A stretch of DNA of 64,000 nucleotides from an uncultured Bacillales bacterium (GTDB lineage Bacteria > Bacillota_I > Bacilli_A > RFN20 > CAG-449): contig CAMCEE010000002.1 in the NCBI GenBank assembly GCA_945873815.1, forward strand, positions 103,781 to 167,780, written 5' to 3'. Positions 12,950-62,586 of this stretch are shown piece by piece. The number at the start of each line of letters is the position of its first letter. The first letter of the stretch is position 1. A model generated the notes under the pieces. It worked only from the letters and a program-made list of their open reading frames with translations. It ran no database searches and was not told where the DNA came from. The position numbers and the translations under genes are program-made.

Positions 12950-12969
12950 TAGATTTAGGAGAATGAATT

Positions 12970-13638: not shown

Positions 13639-13659
13639 TAAAGAAAGAAGAGGGGTTAT

Positions 13660-22447: not shown

Positions 22448-22480
22448 AAGAGAATGCCGGAGCATTCTCTTTATTTTATT
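22448..22480. terminator. Bidirectional terminator between the convergent GH31 and giant lipoprotein genes
   Basis: AGAGAATGC-cgga-GCATTCTCT, a 9-bp perfect stem, followed by TTATTTTATT. Confidence 0.7.
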
Positions 22481-44477: not shown

Positions 44478-46431
44478 GGGAATTTGACAGAATCTTCAAC
44501 TAAAAATACTTAATCCAGTGACTCTTATACTTAAGTATAATTTTCTCTTTTTTTATGTCAAATTTCTTATTTTTTATGTTGTATGAATTCGTATGATATG
44601 TTATAATATATTTGGTGATATATTTATGCGAGTTTCTTTAATGAAATGTGGTAATGACGATAAGCTCGTCTATATTGTTGACTCTACTCGTGTCGATAAT
44701 AAAATTAAAACTATTGTTGTTGAAAAATTAGGTAGACTTTCTGATTTAAAAAAGAATTATTTTGATCCTATTGCTTTTGCTAAAAAGAGAGCTCTTCAAC
44801 TCACAAACGAAAAAAAGGCTAATGAAGATAACTTTGATGTCAAATTTTTTACTCAACGTATTCTTTCTTCATCACAAACTTCTTTCAATGCAGGCTATCT
44901 GTTCTTGCAAAAGATCTATTACGGATTATCTTTAGATAAAATTTGTTTAGAAATTCAAGAAGATTCTAAAACTAAATATGATTTAAACAACATCTTAAAA
45001 GATTTAATCTTTTCTAGAATTCTTTATCCTTCTAGTAAACTTTCTACTTTTGATCTCGCTCATAATTTCTTAGAATCTCCTTCTTATGAATTACATGATG
45101 TTTATCGTGCTTTAGATTTATTATCTAATAACATTGACCTTATTCAAAAAGAAGTTTACTCAAGTTCTTTGAAGATTTGCAAACGGAATACTAATATACT
45201 TTATTATGACTGTACTAACTTCTTCTTTGAAATTGAACAACAAGATGGCTTTAGAAATTATGGTTTTTCTAAAGAACATCGCCCTAATCCTATTGTTCAA
45301 ATGGGTTTATTTATGGACGGAAATGGAATGCCTTTAGCTTTTAATATTAATCCTGGTAATACTAATGAACAAATTACTCCTAGACCAACTGAAGAAATGA
45401 TTGAAAAAGAATTCGGCTTATCTAAGTTTATCTATTGTTCTGATGCTGGTTTAGGATCATATAACAACAAATGGTTTAATCAATTAAAAGATCGCTCATT
45501 TATTGTTACTCAATCCTTAAAAAAGATTAAATCTTATCTTCTTAATTGGGTATTAGATGATAATAATTGGAATATACCTAAAGATAAATGCGAATTCAAT
45601 CAAATTATTTTTAAATCTCGCCCAATCAATGAAAAAGGAACTATCATTATTGATGACTTAAATTCTCAAACTGAAATTAATCAAAGATTAATTGTCTCTT
45701 TTTCTCCAAGGTATGCAAAATATCAAAAAGAAATTAGGGATGCCCAAATTGATAGAGCCAAAAAACTAATTGCTCATCCAAGTAAATTTGATAAATACTC
45801 ATCCCAAGACTGCAAAAGATTCATTAAAAATATTGCTTTTGATTCTAAAACAGCTGAAGTAATCGCTAGAGATTTATCTTTGGATTTAGACGCGATTAAC
45901 GAAGAAGCTATGTTTGATGGTTATTATGCTTTAGTAACTAATTTAGATGGTTCAGATGAGGAAATCATTAAGATTAATCACAATCGTTGGGAAATTGAAG
46001 AATCATTTAGAATCATGAAAACAGATTTTAAATCTAGACCAGTTTATTTACAGAATGAAAATAGAATTCGTTCTCATTTCTTAACTTGTTATCTTGCTTT
46101 ACTTATCTATCGTATTCTTGAACAAAAGATTAATGATGATTCACATCATTACACTACTACTCAAATTATTTCTTCATTAAAGGAAATGAACTTATTCAAA
46201 TTAAATGATGTTGGTTTTGCTTCTAATTATCAAGCCTCAGAATTATTAGATTCTCTTTGTAAATCTTTTGATTTAGATCTTAATAAACAAGCATATAGAT
46301 CAAATAAAATAAAAAAATTAATTAAATTAAGTAAAAAACCATACAACATTTTCTAAGCACTAAAAAATGGTAAAATTCCCGATTTATCGGAGTTTCTACC
46401 ATTTTTATTTACTTTAATTGTCAAAGATGAG
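44478..46431 (+). mobile_element. IS1634-family insertion sequence (about 1.95 kb) with a single transposase ORF
   Basis: It is bounded by the 131-bp direct repeats. Ends GGGAATTTGACAG… and …CTTTGACAATT(rc) form imperfect terminal inverted repeats. Long, variable TSDs are the hallmark of IS1634-family elements. Confidence 0.75.
44593..46356 (+). CDS. IS1634-family (IS4-superfamily DDE) transposase
   Basis: 587 aa. The N-terminal region …MKCGNDDKLVYIVDSTRV… and the overall length match IS1634/ISMac-type transposases. Confidence 0.75.
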   Translation: MICYNIFGDIFMRVSLMKCGNDDKLVYIVDSTRVDNKIKTIVVEKLGRLSDLKKNYFDPIAFAKKRALQLTNEKKANEDNFDVKFFTQRILSSSQTSFNAGYLFLQKIYYGLSLDKICLEIQEDSKTKYDLNNILKDLIFSRILYPSSKLSTFDLAHNFLESPSYELHDVYRALDLLSNNIDLIQKEVYSSSLKICKRNTNILYYDCTNFFFEIEQQDGFRNYGFSKEHRPNPIVQMGLFMDGNGMPLAFNINPGNTNEQITPRPTEEMIEKEFGLSKFIYCSDAGLGSYNNKWFNQLKDRSFIVTQSLKKIKSYLLNWVLDDNNWNIPKDKCEFNQIIFKSRPINEKGTIIIDDLNSQTEINQRLIVSFSPRYAKYQKEIRDAQIDRAKKLIAHPSKFDKYSSQDCKRFIKNIAFDSKTAEVIARDLSLDLDAINEEAMFDGYYALVTNLDGSDEEIIKINHNRWEIEESFRIMKTDFKSRPVYLQNENRIRSHFLTCYLALLIYRILEQKINDDSHHYTTTQIISSLKEMNLFKLNDVGFASNYQASELLDSLCKSFDLDLNKQAYRSNKIKKLIKLSKKPYNIF

Positions 46432-50558: not shown

Positions 50559-52835
50559 ATGGAGAATTTAACAAAAAAAGAAAAAATATCAACCTTTGTA
50601 AATTATGGAATAATTTTCATAATGATAATAACGTTCTTTTTCGGATTATTTGGATTAAATGATGTCAGTAAGAAAAAAAGTAAAGATGAACTGATATCAT
50701 TAAATGAGAATTGGAGCATTAATGGTGATATTGTTGATATATCAGATTATAAAGTTTTATTAGGTAAAGATGAAAAAATAACTCTATCTTATGTGACAGA
50801 TGAAACGTTATATCGAAATAATAATTTACTTTTTTATTGCGATATGATGGGAATAGATGTTTTTGTTAATGATAAAAAGATTTATACGGTTAATCGAAGT
50901 GAAATAAGCGGTTGCGTATTAGTTAGATCGATGGTTGTAGTTGATCTAATCAATGTGTGTATTGGTGATACTGTATCTATTGATATTTATAATATTAGGG
51001 GAGATTCTCTTGAATATGAATTACCTACAATTAAGGCAGGAACTGAGAATTCAATTAAGAATAGTATATTTTTGGAAGAAAGTATAACGATTTTTTCTTT
51101 TATTCTTTCTATCGCTGTATTAATAACTTTTATTACATATATTTTCTATGCCTCGAAAACAAGGAAAACGATGGAGAAAAGATTTGTCTCTTTTGGTTTA
51201 TTCATATTAGTTTCAACGATATGGTTATTTTTTGATTCGAATCTAGCTAATACACTTCCTTTAAATATTGAAACTACATCTCTTATATCATTATATTTAT
51301 TTAAACTTCTTCCTCTTGGATTGTTATTTTTTGTGTTACGTTCATTCAAGAGCGATCGTGTCATTCTAATTAGAATAATGATTATCTTATGTTACATCAA
51401 TATTGCAACTGGTACGTTATTATCCTTTTTAAGAGTGATTCCACTTAATAATCTAGTTTTCATTGATCAAACATTATTTGGATTATCGGTTATGGCAACA
51501 TTGTTTTATGTAAATGTTTACGCGAGAAAATATAGAAATGAGCCACAACAAAAAATCACATTTATTGCTTTCTTTGTTTTATTAGCATTCTATATTTCAT
51601 CCTTAGTATGTTATTACATTTATGAATCGAAGATATATCACGATATAATGTCTATTGCAATCGTCATATTCTACGTATTTATCTTCTTGATTGTCATTTA
51701 TTTTTCTAGAGTGGATTCTAAGTTAAAGAAGAAAGTTGCAGAAGAAAGAGAATATTATCGTTTAATGTCATATAAAGATGAATTAACTGGGCTTAATAAT
51801 ATTCGTGCATACGAAGAAGATTTGAAATCCTTTGAGACCCAAAAGACAGAAAATACTATATTAGTGGTGATCGATATTAATGATGTTAAACGAATAAATG
51901 ATACATATGGACATGGAGCAGGTAATGTACTTATCACTCAATGTGCACAATGCATTACAAAAACATTTAGTAAATATGGAAGGTGCTACCGCATACGAGG
52001 AAATGAATTTGCCTTAATTATTGATTATCCTTCCTTCGATATTGAAAAGAGATTATCGTATTTTAATGAATTAATAAAGGCTTCAAACGGAGATAGAATA
52101 TATAAACTATCAGTTGCAGTAGGCTATGCAAAATATAAAGATAATGAAGGAAAGATGCTTGAGGATCTTCGTTTCCAAGCTGATCTAGATATGTATAAAG
52201 ATAAGAATAGAAAGAGATTAGTTGAGATCAAATCTAAAAATGAAATATGGCAAAAGATGATTGATACTATCATTTCTATATTTGAAGTTAAGGACCCATA
52301 TACGGCTCAACATTCAAATAGAGTAAGTTACCTTTCTAAATTTATTGCTGAATCAATGGGGTTTACCGAATTAGCAATACAAGATATTTTCCTTGCAGGA
52401 AAGCTTCATGATATTGGGAAGATTGGAATTTCGGATAAGATTCTAACAAAGAAAGCAAGATTGAATGATGAGGAATTTGAAGAGATTAAGAAGCACACTA
52501 TTATTGGAGAAAAGATTATTAAATCGTCTGGTGGCATGGACAAAATTGCAAATATTATTCGTCACCATCACGAAAAATATAATGGTACTGGATACCCAGA
52601 CAGAATATCAAAGGATGATATTCCAATTGAATCTAGAATACTTGCAATTGCAGATTCAATCGATGCAATGACTTCCGATCGTTGCTACAGAAAAGCATTA
52701 ACTTACGATGAATGTAAGGAAGAGATTACAAGAAATTTAGGTGTTCAATACGATCCAATTGTTGGAAAATATACTCTTGAAAATTGGGATGAATTAGTCT
52801 CAATTCATAAAGAATTAAGAAATCAATTAGATTGA
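50559..52835 (+). CDS. Membrane sensor: 7TMR-DISM-like extracellular and 7TM N-terminus, degenerate GGDEF domain (RGNEF), and HD-GYP c-di-GMP phosphodiesterase domain
   Basis: N-terminal signal/TM, a periplasmic domain, then 7 TM helices. The GGDEF-fold region carries RIRGNEFALII instead of GG(D/E)EF. The HD-GYP motifs are HDIGK and HHEKYNGTGYPD. Confidence 0.75.
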   Translation: MENLTKKEKISTFVNYGIIFIMIITFFFGLFGLNDVSKKKSKDELISLNENWSINGDIVDISDYKVLLGKDEKITLSYVTDETLYRNNNLLFYCDMMGIDVFVNDKKIYTVNRSEISGCVLVRSMVVVDLINVCIGDTVSIDIYNIRGDSLEYELPTIKAGTENSIKNSIFLEESITIFSFILSIAVLITFITYIFYASKTRKTMEKRFVSFGLFILVSTIWLFFDSNLANTLPLNIETTSLISLYLFKLLPLGLLFFVLRSFKSDRVILIRIMIILCYINIATGTLLSFLRVIPLNNLVFIDQTLFGLSVMATLFYVNVYARKYRNEPQQKITFIAFFVLLAFYISSLVCYYIYESKIYHDIMSIAIVIFYVFIFLIVIYFSRVDSKLKKKVAEEREYYRLMSYKDELTGLNNIRAYEEDLKSFETQKTENTILVVIDINDVKRINDTYGHGAGNVLITQCAQCITKTFSKYGRCYRIRGNEFALIIDYPSFDIEKRLSYFNELIKASNGDRIYKLSVAVGYAKYKDNEGKMLEDLRFQADLDMYKDKNRKRLVEIKSKNEIWQKMIDTIISIFEVKDPYTAQHSNRVSYLSKFIAESMGFTELAIQDIFLAGKLHDIGKIGISDKILTKKARLNDEEFEEIKKHTIIGEKIIKSSGGMDKIANIIRHHHEKYNGTGYPDRISKDDIPIESRILAIADSIDAMTSDRCYRKALTYDECKEEITRNLGVQYDPIVGKYTLENWDELVSIHKELRNQLD

Positions 52836-52984
52836 TCTTATAATAAAATAATGACGAAAAAATACAAATGTATTAATTTTTTATGCAAAAACTCTAATGT
52901 TTTTTAATAAAGAATAAAAAAATCTTTAAAAATCAAAATTTTTTTCAAAACCTCTTGCAATATAAAAAAAACCGCATTATTATG

Positions 52985-53075
52985 TATTTGTATTTGGGGG
53001 CAAAATTGTAGCAATACAATGACGCAAAACTAGAGGGTCCTACAGGGATAGCCAGTTGCAATATGTAACTATTTA
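52985..53075 (+). ncRNA. Candidate c-di-GMP-I (GEMM) riboswitch
   Basis: GGGGGCAAAA, then the hairpin ATTGTA-GCAA-TACAAT (GNRA tetraloop), then GACGCAAAAC, then TAGAGGGTCC, then GGGATAGCCAGTTGC. This parallels the GEMM-I core GGCAAACC / GNRA-capped P1b / GACGCAAAGC / GGGUC. It lies in the 5' leader of the 53251 operon. Confidence 0.5.
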
Positions 53076-53113
53076 TTAGAACGTATGTTGCGATTGGATT
53101 AGAAAATTGAAAC

Positions 53114-53150
53114 AAACCGCTCTAATAAAAGATGAGCGGTTTTTATTTTC
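53114..53150 (+). terminator. Intrinsic terminator (probable riboswitch expression platform)
   Basis: CCGCTC-taataaaagatga-GAGCGG followed by TTTTTATTTT. It lies about 40 nt after the aptamer and 100 nt before the first CDS. Confidence 0.6.
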
Positions 53151-53250
53151 TAAAATAGTTACTCACCTTGAATGGTAAAATCTTACTTATCAGTGTAGAA
53201 AGGAAGAAGTTGGAGAAAAAGAAAACTAATGTTATGAGGAGGGGGAAAAT

Positions 53251-53988
53251 ATGAAGTCATCTGTAGTTCGTAAATATCACCGCCTCGCACTTAGCAAGAA
53301 ATTCACCACTAGGGCATTAGCAATTCTTGGTACTCTCATTCTTCTTATCGCAGCACTAACAATCTATGGCTCACAAACTGGAAACTTCGTCGTATCGGTA
53401 AAAAATATTAACCGCAATGAAAGTATTGCTCTATCGATAGAAGAAGATAAAAGTAATGAAGTCTCTAGATTGATTGCAAATCCATTAAAGGATTGCATAG
53501 ATGGGTGTTACGATGACATTCCTGAAGACATTGATGAAGGATTAGGCTCCAAAAACGACAAATCCGGAAGGTATTTGGCAATGTCATTCTATTTAATTAA
53601 TAATGGAATGACGACAAGAAACGTCGCTATGGATTTCAGAATTACTCAAGTTACGAAAAGGATCGATACAATACTTCGAGTAATGATTATCCAAGATGGT
53701 GAAAAAACATTCTTCTCAAAAGCCAGAGAGGATGTAGATAACGGAGACGGGTTAGGGGAACCAATATGGGGCTTTGATTACTCCGGACGGTATGTTATTA
53801 CAAATGCAAATGCATTCGATGATGAATACATCGTTCACAAGAAAATCAATGATTTCGAAAAAGGCTCTTCAATAAAATTCACGATAGTGATGTGGCTTGA
53901 TGGTTTAGATGATCAAAACCCAGATGGAAATAGAGATATGTTGGGTGGAGCACTAAAAACCGAATTGAATTTTAGCATTATAGGCTAA
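53251..53988 (+). CDS. Hypothetical N-terminally membrane-anchored or secreted protein (TapA-like position)
   Basis: RBS GAGGAGGGGG. The N-terminal hydrophobic segment is ALAILGTLILLIAALTIYGS. It is the first gene downstream of the riboswitch candidate. Confidence 0.4.
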   Translation: MKSSVVRKYHRLALSKKFTTRALAILGTLILLIAALTIYGSQTGNFVVSVKNINRNESIALSIEEDKSNEVSRLIANPLKDCIDGCYDDIPEDIDEGLGSKNDKSGRYLAMSFYLINNGMTTRNVAMDFRITQVTKRIDTILRVMIIQDGEKTFFSKAREDVDNGDGLGEPIWGFDYSGRYVITNANAFDDEYIVHKKINDFEKGSSIKFTIVMWLDGLDDQNPDGNRDMLGGALKTELNFSIIG

Positions 53989-54015
53989 TTAACATGAAAG
54001 GAAAGAGGAAAAAAT

Positions 54016-54846
54016 ATGAAAAAGACAAGTTCAAAATTATTCTTAGCTGCAGCAGCATTAGGTTTAGCAGCAGCATCAACAGTAGGATCAACATACGCAT
54101 GGTTCACTGTTAATGGATCAGCACAAGCTTCAGGATTATCAATGGAAGTTGCAAGTGGATCAGGTATTATGATAAAAAAACATGCTGATTCAACTTATTT
54201 AGCAGATATGAATATTTCAACTGATTTTGCGGGAAAGAAATGGGAACCATGTACACCAACTGCTCCAAATGATTTATCTAGCTTTAAGAAGCTTAATATT
54301 CAAGATACAATCAGTAGTAACGGATATACATATGATAATGCAGTAAACACTGATAATAAACTTTATTTCTATACACTTGATTTAGATGTTAGAGTGTCTG
54401 CAGGCTTTAATTTTAAAGTATATGTTTCTGATATTAGTGATACTTCTAGTCAAGATGCTGATTGTAAAGCTGCAAATGTTGTAAGAGTAGGTTTTAGAAA
54501 ATATGATAAAACTGGAAACAACATTACTGAAACAACTGTTCATACTATTCAAACAAGAAATTATGGTTCTGAAAGTAATTATGCTTTAACTAAATTTAAG
54601 AGTGTATTTGGTATCAACGATCCTGCATTTACAGCAGAAACTTCTAATATAACTGATTGTATCAATGGTGAAGGTTTGAATTGTAAAACTGTAACTATAG
54701 CTGAAGGCGCAGAAGCTCTTAATGGATATGTTACACAAAGAGTTGAAATCGTTGTATGGTATGAAGGAAATGACTATCAATGTGCAGATGATATTTTATC
54801 AAAAAAAGTAACATTCAAATTGAACTTCGTACCAGTAGATGCATAA
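54016..54846 (+). CDS. Secreted TasA/camelysin-family-like protein with a SipW-cognate-class signal peptide
   Basis: Signal MKKTSSKLFLAAAALGLAAASTVGSTYAWFTVNG. The …G(S/T)(Y/F)A(W/Y)F… ending is characteristic of SipW substrates such as TasA and CalY. A SipW gene follows immediately. Confidence 0.5.
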   Translation: MKKTSSKLFLAAAALGLAAASTVGSTYAWFTVNGSAQASGLSMEVASGSGIMIKKHADSTYLADMNISTDFAGKKWEPCTPTAPNDLSSFKKLNIQDTISSNGYTYDNAVNTDNKLYFYTLDLDVRVSAGFNFKVYVSDISDTSSQDADCKAANVVRVGFRKYDKTGNNITETTVHTIQTRNYGSESNYALTKFKSVFGINDPAFTAETSNITDCINGEGLNCKTVTIAEGAEALNGYVTQRVEIVVWYEGNDYQCADDILSKKVTFKLNFVPVDA

Positions 54847-54978
54847 TTTATATATTTATTAGCAAAAACTATATATTTCATTTAATAAAATGGGTTAGTG
54901 GTGTTGCCACTTCCCTATTTTATTATTATAATAAACTTGGTATATTATAAATATTTATAATATCAAGCGAGGTACTTT

Positions 54979-55824
54979 ATGAAAAATAATGTTTTAAAGA
55001 AAGTGTTAAAGATTTCAGGTAACGTTCTTTTTGGAATCTTTTTAGTCTTTATTTTGTTTATTGCAATAACAAATATTAGAGCTAAATCAACCGATAATGT
55101 TCCAAATATTTTTGGATATGGGTACTTAAATGTATTATCCGATTCTATGGATGGAGATAAAGAGGACTCATTTAAAATTGGTGATTTGATTTTTGTTAAA
55201 CTAGTTAATAAAGAAGAAGCAGAAAATTTAAAAGTAGGAGATATCATTACCTATAGAACTATTATTGATGGTAAGGATATGACTATTTCCCATAGAATTA
55301 TTAGAATTGAACCTGACAATCCTTATAAATATGTTACGCAAGGTGATCATCCTTCTTCTAGTATGGCGGCAACTGATGCTGTTAAAGTAAATCAAGTTAT
55401 CGCAGTATATCAAGGTAAATGGGCTGGTGCTGGTTCAGTATTTGCTTGGTTCTCGAGTGGATTTGGATTTTTTCTTATTGTATGTGTACCTTGTATTTTA
55501 TTCTTGATTTTTGAAATCATTAATTTCGTAAAAGTATATATGGAATATAAAAACGAAAAACAACAAGTTGCTATGGCAGGTGGACCTGATAGCATTCAAA
55601 ATAAGATTAGAATGAGAAAGGCAGCATATGATGATCTTGTTAAAGAGGGTACTTTAACTAAAGAGCAAGCAGAGGCTGCACTTAATGAATATATTAAGAG
55701 TGTATCTGTAATAGAAAATGATACTACTTTAGAAGAAAAGCCTGTAGGTGCTAATGAATCATTAGAAGTATCTACTGAAGAAGCAAAGGAAAAAACTTCA
55801 GCAGTTGAAGAAAAAAATGAATAA
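54979..55824 (+). CDS. sipW: Signal peptidase I, archaeal-type SipW family (S26), with a C-terminal extension
   Basis: N-terminal TM. The catalytic block is NVLSDSMDGD…IGDLIFV…VGDIITY…ISHRIIRIE…TQGDH, matching SipW VLSxSME…VGDIITF…THRVVEI…TKGDNN. A second TM and a K/E-rich tail follow. Confidence 0.75.
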   Translation: MKNNVLKKVLKISGNVLFGIFLVFILFIAITNIRAKSTDNVPNIFGYGYLNVLSDSMDGDKEDSFKIGDLIFVKLVNKEEAENLKVGDIITYRTIIDGKDMTISHRIIRIEPDNPYKYVTQGDHPSSSMAATDAVKVNQVIAVYQGKWAGAGSVFAWFSSGFGFFLIVCVPCILFLIFEIINFVKVYMEYKNEKQQVAMAGGPDSIQNKIRMRKAAYDDLVKEGTLTKEQAEAALNEYIKSVSVIENDTTLEEKPVGANESLEVSTEEAKEKTSAVEEKNE

Positions 55825-55935: not shown

Positions 55936-57579
55936 TTGATGAACGAATTTGCTCAATATTATTTAGAATTCATGCGTCAAGTTTGGGAACAAATTTGTAA
56001 TTTCTTTGTTGGATTATATAATTGTTTCGCTGATATTCTTGTATTAAATCATATTGACAACATTAAATTGATTGGAAAATATGCAAATAGTTTTAATGTA
56101 TTATCTTGGATTTTATTTGTAATAATTGATGGTATTACATTAGCTTTTATTGTTTTATTATTTGTTAAGGCATTCCAATTATTGAGAAGATGGTTGAAAT
56201 TTAGAAAGAAAGAAGTTGAAAAAGAAGACTTACTATTTGAAATTGCTCAATTGAAAGAGGAAGTTAAACGTACAATTAAGGATAAAGAGAGAATTCTTAA
56301 TTTACAACTAGGTGAAGTAAGAGAACAAGGTTTATTAGTTCCTTCAAAAGGTATGATTACGCAAGAAGATGCAACGGGAGGCTACTATCCTAGTGATGAA
56401 TTAGTTAGCGTTTCTCCTCAAAGCTTTTTACCTAGTGATATGAAAAGTGAAAAAGAAGTCACTTCTTCTAGTGCAACAGAAGAAAAAGGAAGATTCTCAA
56501 AACTTGCGCTTGTTGATCAAAAATATGCGGAATCAGGTATTTACCATATTACAATGACAGAAGATGATTTAGTTGGATTACCTGAAATTATTAATAGATT
56601 CGTTAATTATGCGGCTAGTCAACATCATTTGTATTATACAAAACGTACAATTTCTAAATTTGTCGCAGGTTTAGCTACTTCAAAGATTATTATTCTTGAA
56701 GGTATATCTGGTACTGGTAAAACATCATTGCCATATGCTTTTTCAAGATTTATGAAGAACCAAGCTCAAATCGTTTCTGTACAACCTTCTTGGAGAGATA
56801 GAACAGAAATTCTAGGTTATTTAAATGAATTTACAAAGAAATTTAATGAAACTGACTTCTTAAAGGCATTATATGAAGTTTCTTATCGTGAAGATGTTAA
56901 CTTAATCGTCCTTGATGAGTTGAACTTAGCTCGTATTGAATATTATTTTGCTGAATTCTTATCTATTATGGAAATGCCTGATAAGAGTGAATGGAAAATT
57001 GACCTTGTTCCAACACAAGAGCCTAATGATCCACATCATTTAACTGAAGGAAAATTATTGATTCCACAAAACTTATGGTATATTGGAACAGCAAACAAGG
57101 ATGACTCAACTTTTACTATTACTGATAAGGTTTACGATAGAGCTGTTACTCTTTATTTAAATGAAAGAGCAAAATATTTTGATGCTCCATTTACTGAATC
57201 TATCAATTTATCATATGATTATTTACAAAAACTCTTTGATGAAGCTAGTGAATTACATACGATTTCATTAAAGAATTTAGATAATATCGAAAAATTAGAT
57301 GAATTTGTCCAAGAAAATTTCAAGATTGCTTTTGGTAACCGTATTATGAAACAAATTAAGACATTCGTTCCTGTATACGTTGCTTGTGGTAATTCTGAAT
57401 TAGATGGATTGGATTACATGATTTGTACAAAGATATTTAAGAAATTTGAGGCATTAAACTTGCCTTTCTTGAAGAAGGAATTAGAGGGTTTAATCGCATT
57501 AATTCAAAAATTATACGGAAAAGAATCGTTTAAAGAATCAATTGCATATTTACGTGATTTATTAAAGATGGCTTCGTAG
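55936..57579 (+). CDS. Membrane-anchored McrB-like AAA+ (AAA_5) NTPase with an N-terminal TM helix and coiled coil
   Basis: TM helix SWILFVIIDGITLAFIVLLFV. Walker A LEGISGTGKTSL. The Walker B and sensor region is LIVLDELNLARIEYYFAEFLSIME. The motif WYIGTANKDDSTFTITDKVYDRA matches McrB blocks DEINRA…GEL.YLLEYR and IGTMNTADRS…RR. Confidence 0.6.
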   Translation: MMNEFAQYYLEFMRQVWEQICNFFVGLYNCFADILVLNHIDNIKLIGKYANSFNVLSWILFVIIDGITLAFIVLLFVKAFQLLRRWLKFRKKEVEKEDLLFEIAQLKEEVKRTIKDKERILNLQLGEVREQGLLVPSKGMITQEDATGGYYPSDELVSVSPQSFLPSDMKSEKEVTSSSATEEKGRFSKLALVDQKYAESGIYHITMTEDDLVGLPEIINRFVNYAASQHHLYYTKRTISKFVAGLATSKIIILEGISGTGKTSLPYAFSRFMKNQAQIVSVQPSWRDRTEILGYLNEFTKKFNETDFLKALYEVSYREDVNLIVLDELNLARIEYYFAEFLSIMEMPDKSEWKIDLVPTQEPNDPHHLTEGKLLIPQNLWYIGTANKDDSTFTITDKVYDRAVTLYLNERAKYFDAPFTESINLSYDYLQKLFDEASELHTISLKNLDNIEKLDEFVQENFKIAFGNRIMKQIKTFVPVYVACGNSELDGLDYMICTKIFKKFEALNLPFLKKELEGLIALIQKLYGKESFKESIAYLRDLLKMAS

Positions 57580-57599: not shown

Positions 57600-59333
57600 A
57601 TGGCAGATATAAATTTTGAAAAAAAATACTATTCATCAATACTAGGATCTATCAATAGAAATGATAGTCACAACTTTTATAATGAAATGCTCAATGCAAT
57701 TAAAGGCGGCAATATGGAAGTATTCCTTACTCGTAGCCGTCAACAATTGTCATTTGATTCGACATGGATTCATCAAATTAGTGACTATTTAAGATACGTA
57801 GAGAATATCGTTAGAAATCCTCGTATCTACATGTTAGCAGTTGAAGAAGTTACTCCAATTCAAAGAGCAAAGAAGATTAATGCTAGATCAATTCAACATT
57901 TATCTTCTCACGTTCAAAATGTTCAAGAACTTAGAAAAGATGGAACTATTGTTCCTTCAAAAGTATTATCGACAACTTTTGAAGATACTTTTGCAATATA
58001 TGAAAACAGATTTGTTATGACATTAATTAACAAATTAGCTGCTTTCGTTGAAGTTAGATATGATTCCATTTTAGAAAGTATTAAATCATATCAAATGGAT
58101 AAGATTGTTGCAAAATCATCTTTTGTTTGGCGAAATTATTCAATCGATGCAAAGATTGAATTAAATGTTAAAGAAGAAATTTTAGATGAAGTAAGTAAGA
58201 AAAATAAGGAATTATTGGATGATATTATCGTTATTAGAAATTATGTTAGAGGATTTATGACTTCAAGTTTCTATCAAACAATGAAAGAGAGAACTCGTCC
58301 TGTTACTCCTCCTATTTTAAGAACTAATATCATTACAAAATCTGTTGATTATAACTCATGTTTGAAATTGTGGCTATTCTTAGATTCTTACCGTCAACTA
58401 GGTGTTGATTTAGAAGTTATGGATAAAGAATTACCATTTGATGATAAGTTCATTGATGAAGTTAGCGATATGCTATTTATGAACTATTCTTTGTTTGTAT
58501 CTAACCAAGAGGATAGAAAAGAGAATTATGAACTTCTTCCATTTAAAAAGAGAAAAGAAAAGAAACCTAAAGTTAATAAATTATTAGTAGCACATGATGA
58601 AGAAGAGGGATTGAAGGATGATAACATTAATGAACCTACAATTTCAGAATACTTCTATCAAAGAGTAAAGAAAAACTATAAGACAGAATTTACAGAACAA
58701 ATAAATTCAGGTATTTCTTATAATAAAGCCTTCTTAAGCGTATATAAGAAAATGCTTAAAATTGAAAATGGTATTCAAGATGAAATAGTTGAAAGTATGC
58801 AAAAGCGTATTCCTGTCACTAATTCTATTAAAGAAAAAAGAAGAGCAAAACATAAGCAATATAAAAAAATGAAGGGGATGTATGAAAACCTAATCGCAGC
58901 TAAAGAATTGGATTTAGAAAAGGCTCGACAAAAACTAGAGAAATTGAATGAAACTCTTGAAAAATATGCTAAAGAAGAAAAGGAATATCAATTAGAACTT
59001 CGTAGACAAAAAAGAAAGCAACAAAAAGAGGAACTCGAGCTTCAAAATAAAAACGATGAAGAAAAGAAGAAGGAAGAAAAATTAAAGAAGAAAAAAGAAT
59101 CCATTAAAAAGATTCCACTTCCAGTAAGCGACAAACCACTTGAAATTGATCTTCCTGAAAAAGAAGATGCTCCAGTAGTTGCTGAACCAAATGATGAAGA
59201 AATCAAACCTTCTGTTGGAATAAATTCTCGTACTGCTCGTCTTCTAGAATATCTTCAAAAGGCTCGTCAAGCATCAAGAAGTAAAGAAGTTAAGGTCGAA
59301 AGCAGAAATATAGACCACAATGAGGAAAAGTAA
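57600..59333 (+). CDS. Large hypothetical protein (577 aa). The N-terminal globular domain is a possible McrC-like partner. The C-terminus is an extremely K/E-rich coiled coil.
   Basis: It starts 21 nt after the ATPase gene. The C-terminal 250 aa are low-complexity and basic (…KKKEEKLKKKKESIKK…). No PD-(D/E)xK motif could be recognised confidently. Confidence 0.4.
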   Translation: MADINFEKKYYSSILGSINRNDSHNFYNEMLNAIKGGNMEVFLTRSRQQLSFDSTWIHQISDYLRYVENIVRNPRIYMLAVEEVTPIQRAKKINARSIQHLSSHVQNVQELRKDGTIVPSKVLSTTFEDTFAIYENRFVMTLINKLAAFVEVRYDSILESIKSYQMDKIVAKSSFVWRNYSIDAKIELNVKEEILDEVSKKNKELLDDIIVIRNYVRGFMTSSFYQTMKERTRPVTPPILRTNIITKSVDYNSCLKLWLFLDSYRQLGVDLEVMDKELPFDDKFIDEVSDMLFMNYSLFVSNQEDRKENYELLPFKKRKEKKPKVNKLLVAHDEEEGLKDDNINEPTISEYFYQRVKKNYKTEFTEQINSGISYNKAFLSVYKKMLKIENGIQDEIVESMQKRIPVTNSIKEKRRAKHKQYKKMKGMYENLIAAKELDLEKARQKLEKLNETLEKYAKEEKEYQLELRRQKRKQQKEELELQNKNDEEKKKEEKLKKKKESIKKIPLPVSDKPLEIDLPEKEDAPVVAEPNDEEIKPSVGINSRTARLLEYLQKARQASRSKEVKVESRNIDHNEEK

Positions 59334-59334
59334 T

Positions 59335-59961
59335 ATGAAATCGAAGATTAATTGGAAAAAGATTCTAAAGATTTCAGGCAATGTATTATTAGGTATATTA
59401 ATTGCATTCATTCTCTATCTTGTCGTTGAGATTGTTATTGCATTTATTATAAAAAAACCACCATGCATCTTCAATCATTACATATTCGTAGTACTAACTA
59501 ATTCAATGGAAGATACGATTATGGTGGGAGAAGTAGTATTTGTCAAAAGAGCAGCATTCTCAAATGTAAATATTGGCGATATCATATCTTTTATTGATAT
59601 TAATCCATCGGATGCGGTTTATGGACAATATATTACTCATAGAGTAGTTGGAATTACTCAAAATGGTTTACTTATCACACAAGGTGATAATAATATCGTA
59701 CAAGATTCTTACCGTGTTAGTGAGAATAATTTTATCGGAATTATGGATTATCATTCCAAGTTCCTAGGTAGTATTGTTACATTTTTTAGTAACAATTCCA
59801 ATATCGTATTTATTATAGTTTCTATCGTTCTAATAACAGTTATCTGCCTTGAAGCTAAAAACTTTCTTATTTTAAAGGAAAAAGCTAAACAAGAGGATGA
59901 AAAGGAAAAACTAAAAGAACAAATCATGCAAGAGATTAATAAAGGAGAGAAAGAAGAATAG
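59335..59961 (+). CDS. Second SipW-family signal peptidase I paralog
   Basis: MKSKINWKKILKISGNVLLGILIAF is near-identical in pattern to the N-terminus of the 54979 protein. The catalytic block is VVLTNSMEDTIMVGEVVFV…IGDIISF…ITHRVVGIT…TQGDNN. An RBS GAGGAAAAG is 5 nt upstream. The ATG at 59335 is preferred over 59320. Confidence 0.7.
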   Translation: MKSKINWKKILKISGNVLLGILIAFILYLVVEIVIAFIIKKPPCIFNHYIFVVLTNSMEDTIMVGEVVFVKRAAFSNVNIGDIISFIDINPSDAVYGQYITHRVVGITQNGLLITQGDNNIVQDSYRVSENNFIGIMDYHSKFLGSIVTFFSNNSNIVFIIVSIVLITVICLEAKNFLILKEKAKQEDEKEKLKEQIMQEINKGEKEE

Positions 59962-62586
59962 ATGAAAAGAGTAAATATCCTTATTTACACAATTATATCT
60001 TTTGTTATAGTGGGCGTCCTTTCTGTCGCTTATGTTTTCTACTTGCAAACTTTAGTATTAAGCAAAACTAAATCAAATATTTCAGTTAATGTGACTGAGA
60101 CTTCATCTTATATTGATAGCTATGCGGAAACTCATTTTAAGATATTTGAAAAAGAAGTTAGTGATAATAATATAGGTAATAAGGAATTCATAAATGGATT
60201 TTTAAGAAAATATGGATCTTATGGCTTTGATAAGGTGGGTTATTATAATGATAATACTAATGTCTATTATTATGATTCACTTGTTTCTAAAAAAGAAGGA
60301 AAGTTCGAATTTAAAACATTAAGTAAAGATAAAACATTAAATCAAACGATTTCTCTTATTGAAGAAAGATTTCTTTTTGATAATAATTCTAGAACTGTAA
60401 TGCTCCTATATTGCGTTAATGATGAGGGAAGAAACTTCTTTGCTTTACAAAAATTCTCTTCTTTTATCGATATGCTTGTCAATCCTTATACTAATAATAG
60501 TAATAGTGATACTGTTAAATATTTTGTTTCTACAAGTGATGGATTAATTACTTCTTCTAATTCAGAAGAAAAGAATTTATTAACTATGAATCATTTTTTT
60601 AAGGAAATGACTACAAGGGAAGAATTCAATAATAATATGATTAAGGAGAATTCTATCGTATATGAATTCGACGATTATTCATCTTCATATGTTTCGGGTC
60701 ATAGTATTCTTTCAAAATACAATTCTAATGATTTGTATCTCTATGGCTTGATTCCAACCACATACGTTAATAGCATTAGTAATACCGTGATTATTTCAAC
60801 CTCAATTCTTTTAGCTACTTTAGCATTAATTTTTATCGGATTTGGTATTTATTTGTATGCTTCATATACAATGGCAAGAAAAAAATATATGGTTGAAGGA
60901 ACATTAATTAGAGATGATAGCCACTATTCCATCCTTCTTAATAAACAAGGTAAAATCGTATCTAATAATGCAAAATTTGCTTCATTAGGATTGAAAAAAC
61001 GTGGAATATTTTCATCTTGCATTGATGTTTTAGAATTAAATGGTGGAGATGAAGAATTCATTGATTTATTAGAAAATAGAGGAGATTTTACAATAAAAAT
61101 CAATGATTTAGAGCAAAAAGATAGAACGATTAAATTTATCGTTGTTAAAAAGAAATATGGATATCAATTATTAGGATATGATATTTCCGATGCAGTAATT
61201 GTCCCTTATCATTCTGAAAGAAAAGAAGAAAAGAAAAATGCATTTATACCAAATATCGATGAACTTCATACTTCGATTGATTTGAATTCATTATATAAAG
61301 ATGATTTATTCGACGCTTTGAATAAGAAAGCATTATACATTAGAATTGAAAAAATAATTGAAGAGAAAGCAAGGAATAATCAAAACACCTATTTATTCTA
61401 TTTTGGTCTATCAAATGAAGAGGAAATTGTTCGTACTTATGGTAACGCTATTGAAGAATTAGTAAATGCAAGTATGTTAGATGCGATTACAAAAGAATTT
61501 AATGGAATCGAAGTATACAATATTGATGACCATCATTTCGCTTTCTTTTATGAATTACATGATACTTTCCATTCATTGACTAAGATGATGGAAGATATTG
61601 GTACACGTTTAAAGAAACCAGCAAAGATTTTATCTAACGAAATTGAAATTGAAATTGATTTCGGTATTTATCATTTCGCTTCATTTAATCTTGAAGGAGT
61701 ATCTCCAAAGAAATTGCTTGAAAGAGCTGCTCTTGCGTTTAGACAAGCAATAACTCTTTCGAATAAAACATATAAGATTTACGATAGTAACCTTGAAATT
61801 GCATTCGAACTTGATGATATTATTGCACGTGATATTAGAAATGGTCTTGATAATAATGAATTCGTCACTTATTTCCAACCAAACTATTCTTTAAAAGATG
61901 ATAGAGTATCTGGATTTGAGTGTTTACTTAGATGGAATAATGATAAATATCGTTATGACTCACCATTTAAATATATTCAAGTCGCAGAAAAAGTTGGTCT
62001 TATTAATGAGATTGGTTATTTTACATTAACGGAATCTTTCAAACTTATCAAAGAATTAAATGATCCATACTTGCATATATCTGTTAACGTTTCTCCGGCA
62101 CAATTCTTACAAACTGGTTTCATTTCAAAATTAGTTAGTATGTATACTGAATATGATGTTCCTTATTCATCGATTTGTATAGAAATCACAGAAACTTTCT
62201 TAATTCAATCTATGAATGAAGTAATTGAAAAACTTAAATACTTGCGTTCATTTGGAATTAAAGTTTATCTTGATGATTTTGGTACAGGATATTCTTCACT
62301 ACTATATCTTGCAGAACTTCCAGTTGATGTTATTAAGATTGATAAAGCATTCATCACTCCGCTTAAAACGAGTAAGAGCTCAAGAACTATTGTTTCAGAA
62401 CTTATTCAAATTGCAACTGAATTGAATATGGAGGTAGTTGCAGAAGGTGTTGAAGATGATTATCAAGTCAATTTCCTCGAAAAGAAAAAGTGTATGAATA
62501 TTCAAGGATATTATTTCTCAAAACCTGTTCCTAAAGAACAAGTAAAAGATACTTTAGATATTAAGAGAAAGAAGAAGAAAGAATAG
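59962..62586 (+). CDS. Membrane protein with a large extracytoplasmic domain, a degenerate GGDEF-like region and an intact EAL c-di-GMP phosphodiesterase domain
   Basis: Two TM helices bracket a roughly 250-aa outside domain. EAL motifs present: YFQPNY, ECLLRW, NVSP, DDFGTGYSSL, KIDKAF and EGVEDDYQ. The start codon abuts the SipW2 stop. Confidence 0.75.
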   Translation: MKRVNILIYTIISFVIVGVLSVAYVFYLQTLVLSKTKSNISVNVTETSSYIDSYAETHFKIFEKEVSDNNIGNKEFINGFLRKYGSYGFDKVGYYNDNTNVYYYDSLVSKKEGKFEFKTLSKDKTLNQTISLIEERFLFDNNSRTVMLLYCVNDEGRNFFALQKFSSFIDMLVNPYTNNSNSDTVKYFVSTSDGLITSSNSEEKNLLTMNHFFKEMTTREEFNNNMIKENSIVYEFDDYSSSYVSGHSILSKYNSNDLYLYGLIPTTYVNSISNTVIISTSILLATLALIFIGFGIYLYASYTMARKKYMVEGTLIRDDSHYSILLNKQGKIVSNNAKFASLGLKKRGIFSSCIDVLELNGGDEEFIDLLENRGDFTIKINDLEQKDRTIKFIVVKKKYGYQLLGYDISDAVIVPYHSERKEEKKNAFIPNIDELHTSIDLNSLYKDDLFDALNKKALYIRIEKIIEEKARNNQNTYLFYFGLSNEEEIVRTYGNAIEELVNASMLDAITKEFNGIEVYNIDDHHFAFFYELHDTFHSLTKMMEDIGTRLKKPAKILSNEIEIEIDFGIYHFASFNLEGVSPKKLLERAALAFRQAITLSNKTYKIYDSNLEIAFELDDIIARDIRNGLDNNEFVTYFQPNYSLKDDRVSGFECLLRWNNDKYRYDSPFKYIQVAEKVGLINEIGYFTLTESFKLIKELNDPYLHISVNVSPAQFLQTGFISKLVSMYTEYDVPYSSICIEITETFLIQSMNEVIEKLKYLRSFGIKVYLDDFGTGYSSLLYLAELPVDVIKIDKAFITPLKTSKSSRTIVSELIQIATELNMEVVAEGVEDDYQVNFLEKKKCMNIQGYYFSKPVPKEQVKDTLDIKRKKKKE

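What the first reader, a model, noticed from the sequence alone, without database searches (positions are those of the whole stretch)
53251..55824. TasA/camelysin-like secreted protein with a SipW-class signal next to an archaeal-type SipW, in a non-Bacillus organisation
**Seen in sequence.** The 54016 product has a signal peptide ending …AAASTVGSTYAWFTVNG. This matches the SipW-cognate class, as in TasA …GGTWAAFND and CalY …GTFAFFSD. The next gene has all SipW catalytic blocks. The gene order is anchor-like protein, then substrate, then sipW. This differs from the B. subtilis order tapA-sipW-tasA. The whole unit sits behind a putative c-di-GMP riboswitch rather than under SinR-type control.

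**Inference.** This suggests a c-di-GMP-regulated amyloid-like fibre or pilus in a gut Firmicute lineage. Such fibres are essentially unstudied there.
Basis: partly seen in the sequence, partly recalled or inferred. Interest (0 to 1): 0.6.

Follow-up and report, generated by a model that had tools for sequence, protein, structure and literature searches.

The report
c-di-GMP-switched TasA-like pilus gene cluster
The flagged genes are real, but they are only the front end of a conserved, named and still unstudied gene cluster ("CoCoPALM"), in which a c-di-GMP riboswitch controls TasA-fold fibre subunits that sit beside two SipW-type signal peptidases and a membrane-anchored McrBC-like GTPase pair.

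Summary
Every sequence fact in the finding holds.
- A c-di-GMP-I riboswitch lies at 52989-53063.
- It is followed by a membrane-anchored 245-aa protein, then a 276-aa secreted protein with the signal ...GSTYA|WFT, then an ER/archaeal-type signal peptidase with its Ser/His/Asp residues intact.

In about 30 loci from Izemoplasmatales, uncultured Bacilli, Erysipelotrichaceae, Lachnospiraceae and Oscillospiraceae, the same order recurs:
1. anchor paralog;
2. 1-5 subunit paralogs;
3. SipW1;
4. a TM/coiled-coil McrB-like NxD GTPase;
5. a DUF2357 McrC-like protein without a nuclease;
6. SipW2.

A c-di-GMP-I riboswitch with ON-switch architecture precedes the cluster in 23 loci. Bell et al. 2024 named this association CoCoPALM in one paragraph and deferred its analysis. 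Added here: the subunit fold, the riboswitch control, and strain-level hypervariability of the subunit.

Most likely this is a c-di-GMP-induced donor-strand fibre. The role of the GTPase is unknown.

The parts
50559..52835 (+). Multi-pass membrane protein with a degenerate GGDEF domain (RGNEF) and an HD-GYP domain. It is a probable c-di-GMP phosphodiesterase immediately upstream of the riboswitch.
   Evidence: Pfam GGDEF 2.9e-21 and HD_5 7.2e-34. TM segments. Motifs read from the translation. Conserved upstream in L001.
52955..52983 (+). Promoter-like site, TTGCAA-17 nt-TATTAT, ending 6 nt before the aptamer.
   Evidence: Consensus scan, 9/12 matches. This is a weak consensus match only.
52989..53063 (+). 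c-di-GMP-I (GEMM-I) riboswitch aptamer, with G at the position equivalent to Vc2 G20.
   Evidence: Rfam RF01051, 51.4 bits against gathering score 35. The same element lies upstream of the orthologous gene in 23 related loci. G20 column.
53052..53151 (+). Expression platform. It has three parts: hairpin H2 (53052-53097), which competes with the 3' half of the aptamer; a predicted antiterminator (53072-53095 pairing with 53105-53129); and an intrinsic terminator (stem 53114-53122/53134-53142, with a U tract to 53151).
   Evidence: ViennaRNA folds. z-score of the leader is -4.96. The ON-switch logic is inferred, not shown.
53251..53988 (+). p245: an N-in single-pass membrane protein (TM residues 22-40) whose extracellular domain is a paralog of the fibre subunit. 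It lacks the A|W cleavage motif. Proposed membrane anchor or base subunit.
   Evidence: TM. Family alignment. hhalign against the subunit superfamily: 98.9 %, E 1.3e-16, 212 columns. It always lies directly upstream of the subunit genes. No TapA (TIGR04087) or other NCBIfam hit.
54016..54846 (+). p276: the secreted major subunit. The signal peptide is residues 1-28, with predicted cleavage T-Y-A|W-F. Residues 29-43 form a disordered N-terminal extension, the candidate donor strand. The rest is a beta-sandwich with a conserved C-terminal W-x-[ED]-G-x-D-x-x-C motif.
54897..54932 (+). Terminator-like hairpin (54897-54911, followed by a T-rich tail) overlapping a promoter-like site, TTGCCA-17 nt-TATAAT (54904-54932), between the subunit gene and sipW1.
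   Evidence: Pattern scan. Function not tested.
54979..55824 (+). SipW1: an ER/archaeal-type signal peptidase I with two TM helices (12-30 and 163-181), catalytic residues Ser56, His105 and Asp123, and a charged cytoplasmic tail of about 100 aa.
   Evidence: TIGR02228 59.9 bits, above the 51.85 cutoff; Bacillus SipW equivalog model 79 bits, far below its cutoff of 190. Conserved residues and position upstream of the GTPase in 28 of 29 loci. TM helices.
55936..57579 (+). Membrane-anchored McrB-like AAA+ GTPase of the NxD clade. It has a TM helix at 59-77, a charged coiled-coil-like stretch at 81-135, Walker A GISGTGKTS, Walker B LDE, and N387-K-D389-D390. The likely true start is the ATG at 55939.
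   Evidence: NCBIfam McrB 2.4e-5. A profile of 27 orthologues hits McrB 6hz4 at E 1.7e-4. Pfam AAA_5 in 16 of 27 orthologues. Invariant residues. TM helix. It is the most conserved gene of the cluster, 43-57 % identity.
57600..59333 (+). McrC-like partner. Residues about 1-330 form a DUF2357-type N-terminal domain. Residues about 380-520 form a K/E-rich coiled-coil-like tail. No nuclease motif and no TM helix were found.
   Evidence: 15 of 25 orthologues hit Pfam DUF2357, best E 2.6e-12. The window protein itself has no Pfam hit. Invariant columns. Composition. No meaningful PDB sequence match; the few weak hits fall on the low-complexity K/E-rich tail.
59320..59961 (+). SipW2: a second ER/archaeal-type signal peptidase I (Ser62, His107, Asp123; two TM helices). 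It forms a distinct orthogroup that always lies downstream of the GTPase pair.
   Evidence: TIGR02228 74.3 bits. The orthogroup split places it downstream in 21 of 21 loci. TM helices.
59962..62586 (+). Membrane EAL-domain c-di-GMP phosphodiesterase. Its start codon abuts the SipW2 stop codon, so it is probably co-transcribed.
   Evidence: Pfam EAL 1.2e-65. NCBIfam phosphodiesterase models. The same arrangement occurs in L002. Catalytic motifs read from the translation.

Best explanation
The finding is the regulated front end of a CoCoPALM-type pilus or fibre cluster.

**Proposed mechanism**
1. When c-di-GMP is high, it binds the GEMM-I aptamer. This prevents terminator formation, and the operon is transcribed. 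(Inferred.)
2. The 276-aa pre-protein is exported through Sec and cut after Ala28 (T-Y-A|W-F) by one of the two SipW-type peptidases. (Inferred from the invariant -3/-1/+1 residues.)
3. The mature protein has a TasA-like beta-sandwich and a free N-terminal extension. It polymerises by donor-strand complementation into a surface fibre. (Inferred from the fold.)
4. The 245-aa paralog keeps its transmembrane helix and lacks the cleavage motif. It tethers or nucleates the fibre at the membrane. This would also explain how the system works in wall-less Izemoplasmatales.
5. A membrane-anchored McrB-like NxD GTPase and its nuclease-less McrC-like partner form a cytoplasmic, nucleotide-driven module. 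This module is obligatorily linked to the fibre genes. Its job is not known; it could be energising extraction or assembly, gating, or turnover.
6. The co-transcribed EAL phosphodiesterase would feed back negatively on c-di-GMP.
For: **Riboswitch**
- The aptamer passes Rfam's gathering score.
- It precedes the orthologous anchor gene in 23 of 31 related loci scanned.
- In about 20 of these leaders the terminator's 5' strand is made of the last nucleotides of the aptamer, which is the classic ON design. That count comprises the 19 Izemoplasmatales-type leaders plus L032; L017 is weaker.
- The window's leader gives an aptamer / anti-antiterminator / antiterminator / terminator series with the same logic.

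**Subunit**
- The signal peptide and the invariant T26, A28, W29, F30 are shown.
- AF2 gives pLDDT 83.1, with only residues 25-43 disordered.
- Between two strains with a 97-100 % identical backbone, the mature part of the subunit is only 51-73 % identical, while its signal and N-terminus are 100 % identical. This is expected of an exposed polymer with a conserved assembly interface.

**Anchor**
- It has one TM helix and is homologous to the subunit over its full length.

**Peptidases**
- Both pass TIGR02228, and the Ser/His/Asp residues are conserved.

**Cluster**
- The same gene order occurs in about 30 loci across at least five lineages.
- The GTPase has a TM helix, a coiled-coil-like stretch and the NxD-D motif.
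- The partner protein is a DUF2357 protein.
- This matches the published CoCoPALM description (PMC11090510).
- c-di-GMP enzymes flank the cluster in the window and in several other loci.
Against: - No sequence-level membership in the TasA family. TIGR04088, TIGR04087, TIGR04089/90 and PF12389 all fail to score the window proteins. Only 2 of 93 superfamily members give marginal hits. hhalign of the mature domains finds nothing.
- Polymerisation, the cleavage site and surface location are all inferred. I could not run a multimer prediction.
- Known TasA-type and archaeal donor-strand fibres need no NTPase, so the model leaves the best-conserved gene of the cluster without a defined role.
- In equilibrium folding the window's terminator forms with or without the aptamer. 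The ON logic therefore rests on a kinetic, co-transcriptional argument and on analogy with relatives.
- The five Lachnospiraceae/Oscillospiraceae loci lack the riboswitch.
Confidence: 0.6

Rival explanations
1. This is an ordinary TasA/SipW-type matrix fibre that needs only Sec and a SipW peptidase. The McrB-like and DUF2357 genes are a separate McrBC-type module that merely travels with it, or act only as a regulator.
For: - TasA and archaeal donor-strand fibres assemble without an NTPase (titles and abstracts of PMC9674648 and PMC9245690).
- A terminator-like hairpin and a strong promoter-like site separate the subunit gene from sipW1, so the downstream genes could be expressed independently.
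Against: - The GTPase pair sits between the two peptidase genes, in the same order, in about 30 loci spanning Izemoplasmatales to Lachnospiraceae.
- The GTPase is the most conserved protein of the cluster.
- It is membrane-anchored.
- The McrC-like partner has no nuclease.
- In the window, genes overlap or abut from the GTPase partner through SipW2 to the EAL gene.
Confidence: 0.12
2. The secreted beta-sandwich proteins are not filament subunits. They are monomeric or sheet-forming surface proteins (an adhesin or coat layer), processed by SipW-type peptidases and held at the membrane by the 245-aa paralog.
For: - The hypervariable middle region would equally fit an exposed coat or adhesin.
- No multimer model could be run.
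Against: - The mature N-terminal residues 29-55 are nearly invariant, and residues 25-43 are unstructured in the monomer model, as expected for a donor strand.
- Clusters carry sets of 2-5 paralogs with the same N-terminal motif, like major and minor pilins.
Confidence: 0.15
3. The cluster is an anti-phage or conflict system of the McrBC/CoCoNuT type. The secreted or membrane proteins would act as effectors or sensors.
For: - The GTPase belongs to the NxD clade, whose other members are predicted Type IV restriction-like systems (PMC11090510).
- Its AAA core matches the PADLOC candidate PDC-M26A at 9.4e-39.
- The hypervariable subunit could reflect an arms race.
Against: - There is no nuclease or other toxic effector domain.
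- No other protein of the cluster hits PADLOC.
- Control by a c-di-GMP riboswitch and flanking c-di-GMP enzymes points to lifestyle or adhesion control.
- The authors of the McrBC census themselves set this clade apart as linked to pilus assembly.
Confidence: 0.08

Closest known systems
[quoted passage not shown]
   Same: - The McrB-like GTPase has the NxD signature, followed by a second Asp.
- It is fused to an N-terminal TM helix and a coiled-coil (FtsB-like) segment.
- The McrC homologue (DUF2357) carries a coiled-coil tail and no nuclease.
- Signal-peptidase-family genes are adjacent.
- All four features are met here.
   Different: The paper gives one paragraph and defers analysis to a forthcoming publication, which I could not find. 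It does not describe:
- the fibre subunits or their TasA-like fold;
- the membrane-anchored paralog;
- the two distinct peptidase orthogroups;
- the c-di-GMP riboswitch.
B. subtilis tapA-sipW-tasA operon (TasA donor-strand fibre, PDB 8aur)
   Same: - A secreted beta-sandwich subunit whose best structural match is TasA.
- A signal peptide ending G-[GS]-T-aromatic-A-x-F that aligns with TasA's.
- A dedicated ER-type signal peptidase with a Ser/His/Asp active site.
- An accessory protein encoded upstream.
   Different: - No sequence membership: PF12389, TIGR04088 and TIGR04087 are negative.
- The gene order differs.
- The accessory protein is a TM-anchored paralog of the subunit, not a TapA.
- There are two peptidases and a GTPase pair.
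- Control is by riboswitch rather than by a protein repressor. The repressor is recalled from my own knowledge and was not tested.
C. perfringens sipW-bsaA operon (BsaA matrix polymer; PMC7395162; T4P-associated secretion of BsaC, PMC11580942)
   Same: A TasA-like, SipW-associated extracellular polymer in an anaerobic Firmicute. It is also a precedent for an ATPase-driven machine assisting such proteins (titles and abstracts).
   Different: - The BsaA family model TIGR04090 does not score the window protein or its superfamily.
- There is no McrBC-like module there.
- Its regulation differs.
Archaeal donor-strand filaments: S. acidocaldarius threads (7pnb), P. calidifontis bundling pili AbpA (7ueg), cannulae CanX (9h8b)
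   Same: - Chaperone-free, signal-peptidase-processed beta-sandwich subunits.
- The peptidases here score best with the archaeal-type model TIGR02228.
   Different: Bacterial hosts. No sequence similarity. No NTPase is reported for those filaments in the papers found.
E. coli McrBC Type IV restriction enzyme (PDB 6hz4, 6ut6)
   Same: The AAA+ core is homologous, and the partner carries the McrC N-terminal DUF2357 domain.
   Different: - NxD instead of NxxD.
- A TM/coiled-coil N-terminus instead of a DNA-binding domain.
- No PD-(D/E)xK nuclease in the partner.
- A secretion or fibre gene context.

Membership tests
SipW-dependent-type signal peptide proteins (TIGR04088) | Scores above the curated cutoff (19 bits) of the 34-position HMM that covers the h-region, the GGTxAxF motif and the start of the mature protein. 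| tested here: not met
   - No hit even at E<=10 for the 276-aa and 245-aa proteins or their N-termini.
- Controls TasA and CalY score 38 and 46 bits.
- 2 of 93 superfamily members hit at E<=0.01, best E 0.0028.
- hhalign aligns residues 2-49 with TasA 1-52 at 68 % probability. The resemblance is therefore real but sub-threshold.
TasA/camelysin family (Pfam PF12389 Peptidase_M73; NCBIfam NF046066) | Sequence homology of the mature domain to TasA/CalY. | tested here: not met
   - No Pfam or NCBIfam hit.
- 2 of 93 superfamily members hit at E<=0.01, best E 0.0042.
- Profile searches against PDB sequences are negative.
- hhalign against 111 TasA-family sequences aligns only the signal region.
TasA-like structural class of donor-strand fibres | A beta-sandwich/jelly-roll fold most similar to TasA fibre subunits. 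| tested here: met
TasA-like structural class of donor-strand fibres | The N-terminal strand of one subunit completes the fold of its neighbour, giving polymer formation. | not testable with these tools
   Indirect evidence only: residues 25-43 are disordered in the monomer model, and the mature N-terminus is nearly invariant.
TapA (TIGR04087, YqxM_for_SipW) | Sequence membership of the accessory protein encoded upstream. | tested here: not met
   No NCBIfam hit for the 245-aa protein at E<=10. It is instead a paralog of the subunit.
ER/archaeal-type signal peptidase I (TIGR02228), the family that includes SipW | Scores above the curated cutoff and has the Ser/His(/Asp) catalytic residues rather than Ser/Lys. 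| tested here: met
   59.9 and 74.3 bits against a cutoff of 51.85. Ser-Met, His-Arg and Gly-Asp are conserved in 88-98 % of 55 orthologues.
Bacillus SipW equivalog (NF046067) | Score >= 190 bits. | tested here: not met
   79.3 and 55.3 bits. These are the same class of enzyme but not orthologues of B. subtilis SipW.
c-di-GMP-I riboswitch (Rfam RF01051) | Covariance-model score at or above the gathering threshold, in a 5' leader and on the same strand as the regulated gene. | tested here: met
   51.4 bits against 35, located 188 nt upstream of the 53251 start. Orthologous leaders score 56-66 bits. Ligand binding itself is not testable here.
CoCoPALM (PMC11090510) | A McrB-like GTPase with the NxD signature motif. 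| tested here: met
   Homology to McrB. N387-K-D389-D390 is invariant in 27 orthologues.
CoCoPALM (PMC11090510) | The GTPase is fused to an FtsB-like transmembrane plus coiled-coil segment. | tested here: inconclusive
   A TM helix at 59-77 is followed by a highly charged stretch at 81-135, so the architecture fits. Homology to FtsB/DivIC was not detected by Pfam. No coiled-coil predictor was run.
CoCoPALM (PMC11090510) | An adjacent McrC homologue, usually with a coiled coil and lacking a nuclease. | tested here: met
   DUF2357 in 15 of 25 orthologues. K/E-rich tail. No conserved D...ExK-type columns.
CoCoPALM (PMC11090510) | Association with signal-peptidase-family genes. | tested here: met
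   SipW1 lies upstream in 28 of 29 loci and SipW2 downstream in 21 of 21 loci.

The most novel reading that the evidence does not exclude
CoCoPALM clusters encode a third, nucleotide-driven way of building donor-strand fibres. In this reading, a membrane-tethered McrBC-like GTPase ring, co-opted from restriction systems, works with two dedicated ER-type signal peptidases. Together they extract, hand over or retract TasA-fold subunits on a membrane-anchored base subunit. The result would be a c-di-GMP-inducible, possibly dynamic pilus that works even in wall-less bacteria.
Probability: 0.3. Interest if true: 0.85.

Novelty: new member of a known kind. Interest (0 to 1): 0.6.

Why it matters
TasA-type and archaeal donor-strand fibres are thought to self-assemble outside the cell without energy input. 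Here, TasA-fold subunits are strictly linked to a membrane McrBC-like GTPase across distant Bacillota and Mycoplasmatota lineages. This suggests either an energised assembly or turnover step, or a new non-defence use of the McrBC motor.

The cluster has a name (CoCoPALM) but no published analysis. This window and its relatives supply three things:
- a concrete parts list: anchor paralog, major and minor subunits, two peptidase orthogroups;
- a physiological trigger, the c-di-GMP ON riboswitch;
- evidence of strain-level diversification of the exposed subunit.

A related cluster occurs in a named species with a strain designation, Jingyaoa shaoxingensis NSJ-46, and in complete genomes of Izemoplasma-like bacteria. 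The question is therefore directly testable.

Tried and rejected
- **TIGR04088, TIGR04087, PF12389.** These gave no hit on the 245-aa, 276-aa and 874-aa products, while the controls worked.
- **59962 product.** Its N-terminus is just the first TM helix of an EAL protein, not a SipW-type signal.
- **First AF2 run.** With only 20 close homologues it gave pLDDT 51.8, so I did not use it. The 93-sequence alignment gave 83.1.
- **Profile searches of PDB sequences.** Searches with A1, A2 and A3 found nothing meaningful.
- **hhalign of the 245-aa family against TasA.** No signal.
- **AFDB fold search.** Unavailable.
- **Exact-sequence lookup of the window's 276-aa protein.** Not on record. The source organism therefore stays unidentified. 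Its nearest genome-resolved relative is an uncultured Bacilli MAG (L002, 46-57 % protein identity).
- **PADLOC.** Only the AAA core hits a candidate family, PDC-M26A; no other gene hits. I rejected the defence reading as the main explanation.
- **FAWF motif inside the window's SipW1.** It looked like a self-substrate but is not conserved in orthologues, so it is a coincidence.
- **Equilibrium folding of the window's leader.** It does not by itself discriminate ON from OFF, because the terminator forms in both states. The base-pair probability calculation used wrong stem coordinates and is disregarded. Coordinates were corrected.
- **Supplementary files of the CoCoNuT paper.** The files held as text contain nothing on CoCoPALM.


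Full report

Yes.

The 276-aa product starts MKKTSSKLFLAAAALGLAAASTVGSTYAWFTVNG.
- In 19 homologues that are only 36-96 % identical overall, residues 1-55 are almost invariant.
- In a 93-member alignment of the wider family, A28 and W29 are invariant, and T26 and F30 nearly so.
- The motif [GA][ST]T[YF]AW[FY] follows a hydrophobic stretch in 67 ORFs of related clusters.
- T26-x-A28 fits the -3/-1 rule for signal peptidase I (established knowledge), which predicts cleavage at A28|W29.

The 281-aa product passes the curated cutoff of TIGR02228, the archaeal/ER-type signal peptidase I model. It scores 59.9 bits against a cutoff of 51.85. Ser56-Met, His105-Arg and Gly-Asp123 are conserved across 55 orthologues.

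Rfam finds exactly one RNA family match in the 64-kb window. It is a c-di-GMP-I aptamer at 52989-53063, scoring 51.4 bits against a gathering score of 35. It is preceded by a promoter-like site and followed by an intrinsic terminator at 53114-53151.

**2. Is the 276-aa protein TasA/camelysin-like?**

By sequence, no.
- Pfam Peptidase_M73, the NCBIfam TasA model and TIGR04088/04089/04090 do not score it. TIGR04088 does not score it even at E<=10.
- My TasA and CalY controls score 38 and 46 bits on TIGR04088.
- An exhaustive profile search finds 1139 cluster representatives at E<=1e-3. This is a large family of 270-350-aa proteins with the same N- and C-terminal motifs.
- Of 93 members scanned, only 2 give marginal hits to PF12389 and only 2 to TIGR04088.
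- Profile-profile comparison with 111 TasA-family sequences aligns only residues 2-49 with TasA 1-52. The probability is 68 %, and GSTYAWF falls on GGTWAAF. Nothing in the mature domain aligns.

By structure, yes, moderately.
- With the 93-sequence alignment, AF2 gives pLDDT 83.1 and pTM 0.78. Only residues 25-43 are disordered.
- Foldseek against the PDB ranks the TasA fibre 8aur_A first (E 4e-4, probability 0.95) and the Sulfolobus thread 7pnb second.

The protein is therefore a TasA-fold, probably donor-strand, fibre subunit from a separate sequence family.

**3. The upstream "anchor-like" protein**

It has one TM helix (residues 22-40) after a basic N-terminus, and it lacks the A|W motif.
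- With shallow alignments, only its C-terminal W-L-D-G-x-D motif matched the subunit.
- With deeper alignments built from the related loci, hhalign gives 98.9 % probability, E 1.3e-16, over 212 columns.

It is a membrane-tethered paralog of the subunit, not a TapA (no TIGR04087 hit).

**4. The unit is larger than the finding**

A pattern scan of species-representative genomes returned 40 loci. tblastn and ORF maps show the same order in about 30 of them:
1. the anchor paralog;
2. 1-5 subunit paralogs;
3. SipW1;
4. a protein of about 550 aa with an AAA domain;
5. a protein of about 520-800 aa;
6. in Izemoplasmatales, sometimes two small proteins with FAWF/YGWF motifs;
7. SipW2.

The hosts are Candidatus Izemoplasmatales and other Mycoplasmatota, uncultured Bacilli, Erysipelotrichaceae, Lachnospiraceae (including Jingyaoa shaoxingensis NSJ-46) and Oscillospiraceae.

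The two peptidases form separate orthogroups with fixed positions: 28 of 29 upstream and 21 of 21 downstream of the AAA gene.

The AAA protein is the best-conserved gene (43-57 % identity; 61 % mean column identity).
- It is McrB-like (NCBIfam 2.4e-5; profile against McrB structures 1.7e-4; AAA_5 in 16 of 27 orthologues).
- It has invariant Walker motifs and N387-K-D389-D390.
- It has a TM helix at 59-77 followed by a charged stretch.

Its neighbour has no Pfam hit of its own. However, 15 of 25 orthologues hit DUF2357, the McrC N-terminal domain, with best E 2.6e-12.
- I found no conserved nuclease motif in it.
- It has a K/E-rich tail.

**5. What is known about this cluster**

The McrBC census of Bell et al. 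(eLife 2024, PMC11090510) describes, in one paragraph, a clade with these features:
- NxD-motif McrB GTPases fused to an FtsB-like TM/coiled-coil domain;
- coiled-coil McrC homologues;

The authors name these CoCoPALM systems and defer them to a forthcoming publication. Searches for the name and for the gene combination found no follow-up in the library.

The window's cluster meets the listed features (see the membership table), so it is a member of a named but uncharacterised kind. The paragraph does not mention the fibre subunits, the anchor, or any riboswitch.

**6. Regulation**

I scanned 31 related loci for the riboswitch.
- The c-di-GMP-I aptamer lies upstream of the anchor gene in 23 of them.
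- Three loci without it are truncated just before that gene.
- The other five are Lachnospiraceae or Oscillospiraceae.

In the 19 Izemoplasmatales-type leaders, and in one Eubacteriales leader, the terminator's 5' strand consists of the last nucleotides of the aptamer (gccguua...). A U run follows directly. Ligand-stabilised P1 should therefore prevent termination, which is an ON switch.

The window's leader is built differently.
- A hairpin (53052-53097) competes with the 3' half of the aptamer.
- When the aptamer nucleotides are withheld, a -12.9 kcal/mol antiterminator (53072-53095 pairing with 53105-53129) forms before the terminator's 3' strand is made.
- This also gives ON logic, but only on kinetic grounds, because at equilibrium the terminator wins in both states.

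The cluster is flanked by two c-di-GMP enzymes:
- upstream, a degenerate-GGDEF/HD-GYP protein;
- downstream, an EAL protein whose start abuts the SipW2 stop.

The EAL protein may provide negative feedback (inference).

**7. Mechanism proposed**

See the best explanation for the full model.
- Shown: the parts, their homologies, the fold, and the conserved linkage.
- Inferred: Sec export, cleavage at A28|W29, donor-strand polymerisation, anchoring by the 245-aa paralog, and ON switching.
- Unknown: what the GTPase pair does.

Its strict linkage, membrane tether and lack of a nuclease argue that it belongs to the fibre machinery rather than to defence. A PADLOC hit is limited to the AAA core.

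**8. Extra support for surface exposure**

A metagenomic contig (L001) shares a 97-100 % identical backbone with the window. It is only 51-73 % identical across the mature part of the subunit gene (54100-54830) and 67-79 % identical across the extracytoplasmic part of sipW1 (55122-55415). The signal peptide and first mature residues are identical. This pattern is typical of exposed pilins or flagellins with conserved assembly interfaces (my own knowledge).

**9. Verdict**

It is a new member of a kind that is named (CoCoPALM) but experimentally untouched. Interest is moderate to high, because it makes a possible energised donor-strand pilus testable in cultured organisms.

Noticed in passing
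window 54100-54830 and 55122-55415, compared with L001 10085-10816 and about 11108-11400: Two sharp divergence islands sit in an otherwise 97-100 % identical strain backbone. The mature part of the fibre subunit is 51-73 % identical at the nucleotide level (49 % at the protein level). The extracytoplasmic domain of SipW1 is 67-79 % identical. The subunit's signal peptide and first mature residues are 100 % identical. This suggests allelic replacement or diversifying selection, with the subunit and its peptidase changing together.
   Followed up: partly
aptamers of L002 and the 19 Izemoplasmatales-type loci (e.g. L021:8978-9055), compared with window 52989-53063: The nucleotide equivalent to Vc2 G20 is G in the window, L001, L017 and L032. 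It is A in L002 and in all Izemoplasmatales-type leaders. A G20A change makes the Vc2 aptamer bind both c-di-GMP and 3',3'-cGAMP (PMC6140456). Some relatives may therefore sense a different or broader ligand.
   Followed up: partly
L003:15296-16543, L007:17590-18887, and similar ORFs in L008, L015, L018, L033, L038: Izemoplasmatales clusters carry one or two extra proteins of about 200 aa between the McrC-like gene and SipW2. These have related N-terminal motifs (SFAWF, ITYGWF). They are candidate minor subunits that may be the specific substrates of SipW2. The window has none.
   Followed up: no
L025:106-7437, L030:80-8960, L041:28-8275: In the Lachnospiraceae versions, very large proteins (1000-2300 aa) and additional small AW[FL]-motif proteins lie directly upstream of four conserved subunit paralog classes (ATYAWY.YNT, GSTYAWFTF, ATYAWFTSN, ATVAWFSIAD). 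These may be tip adhesins and minor pilins.
   Followed up: no
window 44593-46356 (+): A DDE-transposase ORF (Pfam DDE_Tnp_1, 1.4e-8) lies between the L28 and rsmF genes. It is absent from the otherwise collinear contig L001, so it is a strain-specific IS insertion.
   Followed up: partly
window 22476-29021 (-): A 2181-aa ORF carries a C-terminal Endonuclease I domain (3.9e-38) and a Listeria-Bacteroides repeat. It is a giant, probably surface or secreted, nuclease.
   Followed up: no
window 54897-54932: A terminator-like hairpin overlaps an 11/12 promoter-like site (TTGCCA-17-TATAAT) between the subunit gene and sipW1. This could uncouple the stoichiometry of the subunit from that of the machinery genes.
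   Followed up: no
window 10867-15072 and 20288-22447: Genes for GH28 polygalacturonase, glucuronate isomerase UxaC and a GH31 glycosidase point to a pectin- and plant-fibre-degrading organism. The nearest genome-resolved relative, L002, comes from a MAG whose title indicates a Nepali stool metagenome.
   Followed up: no
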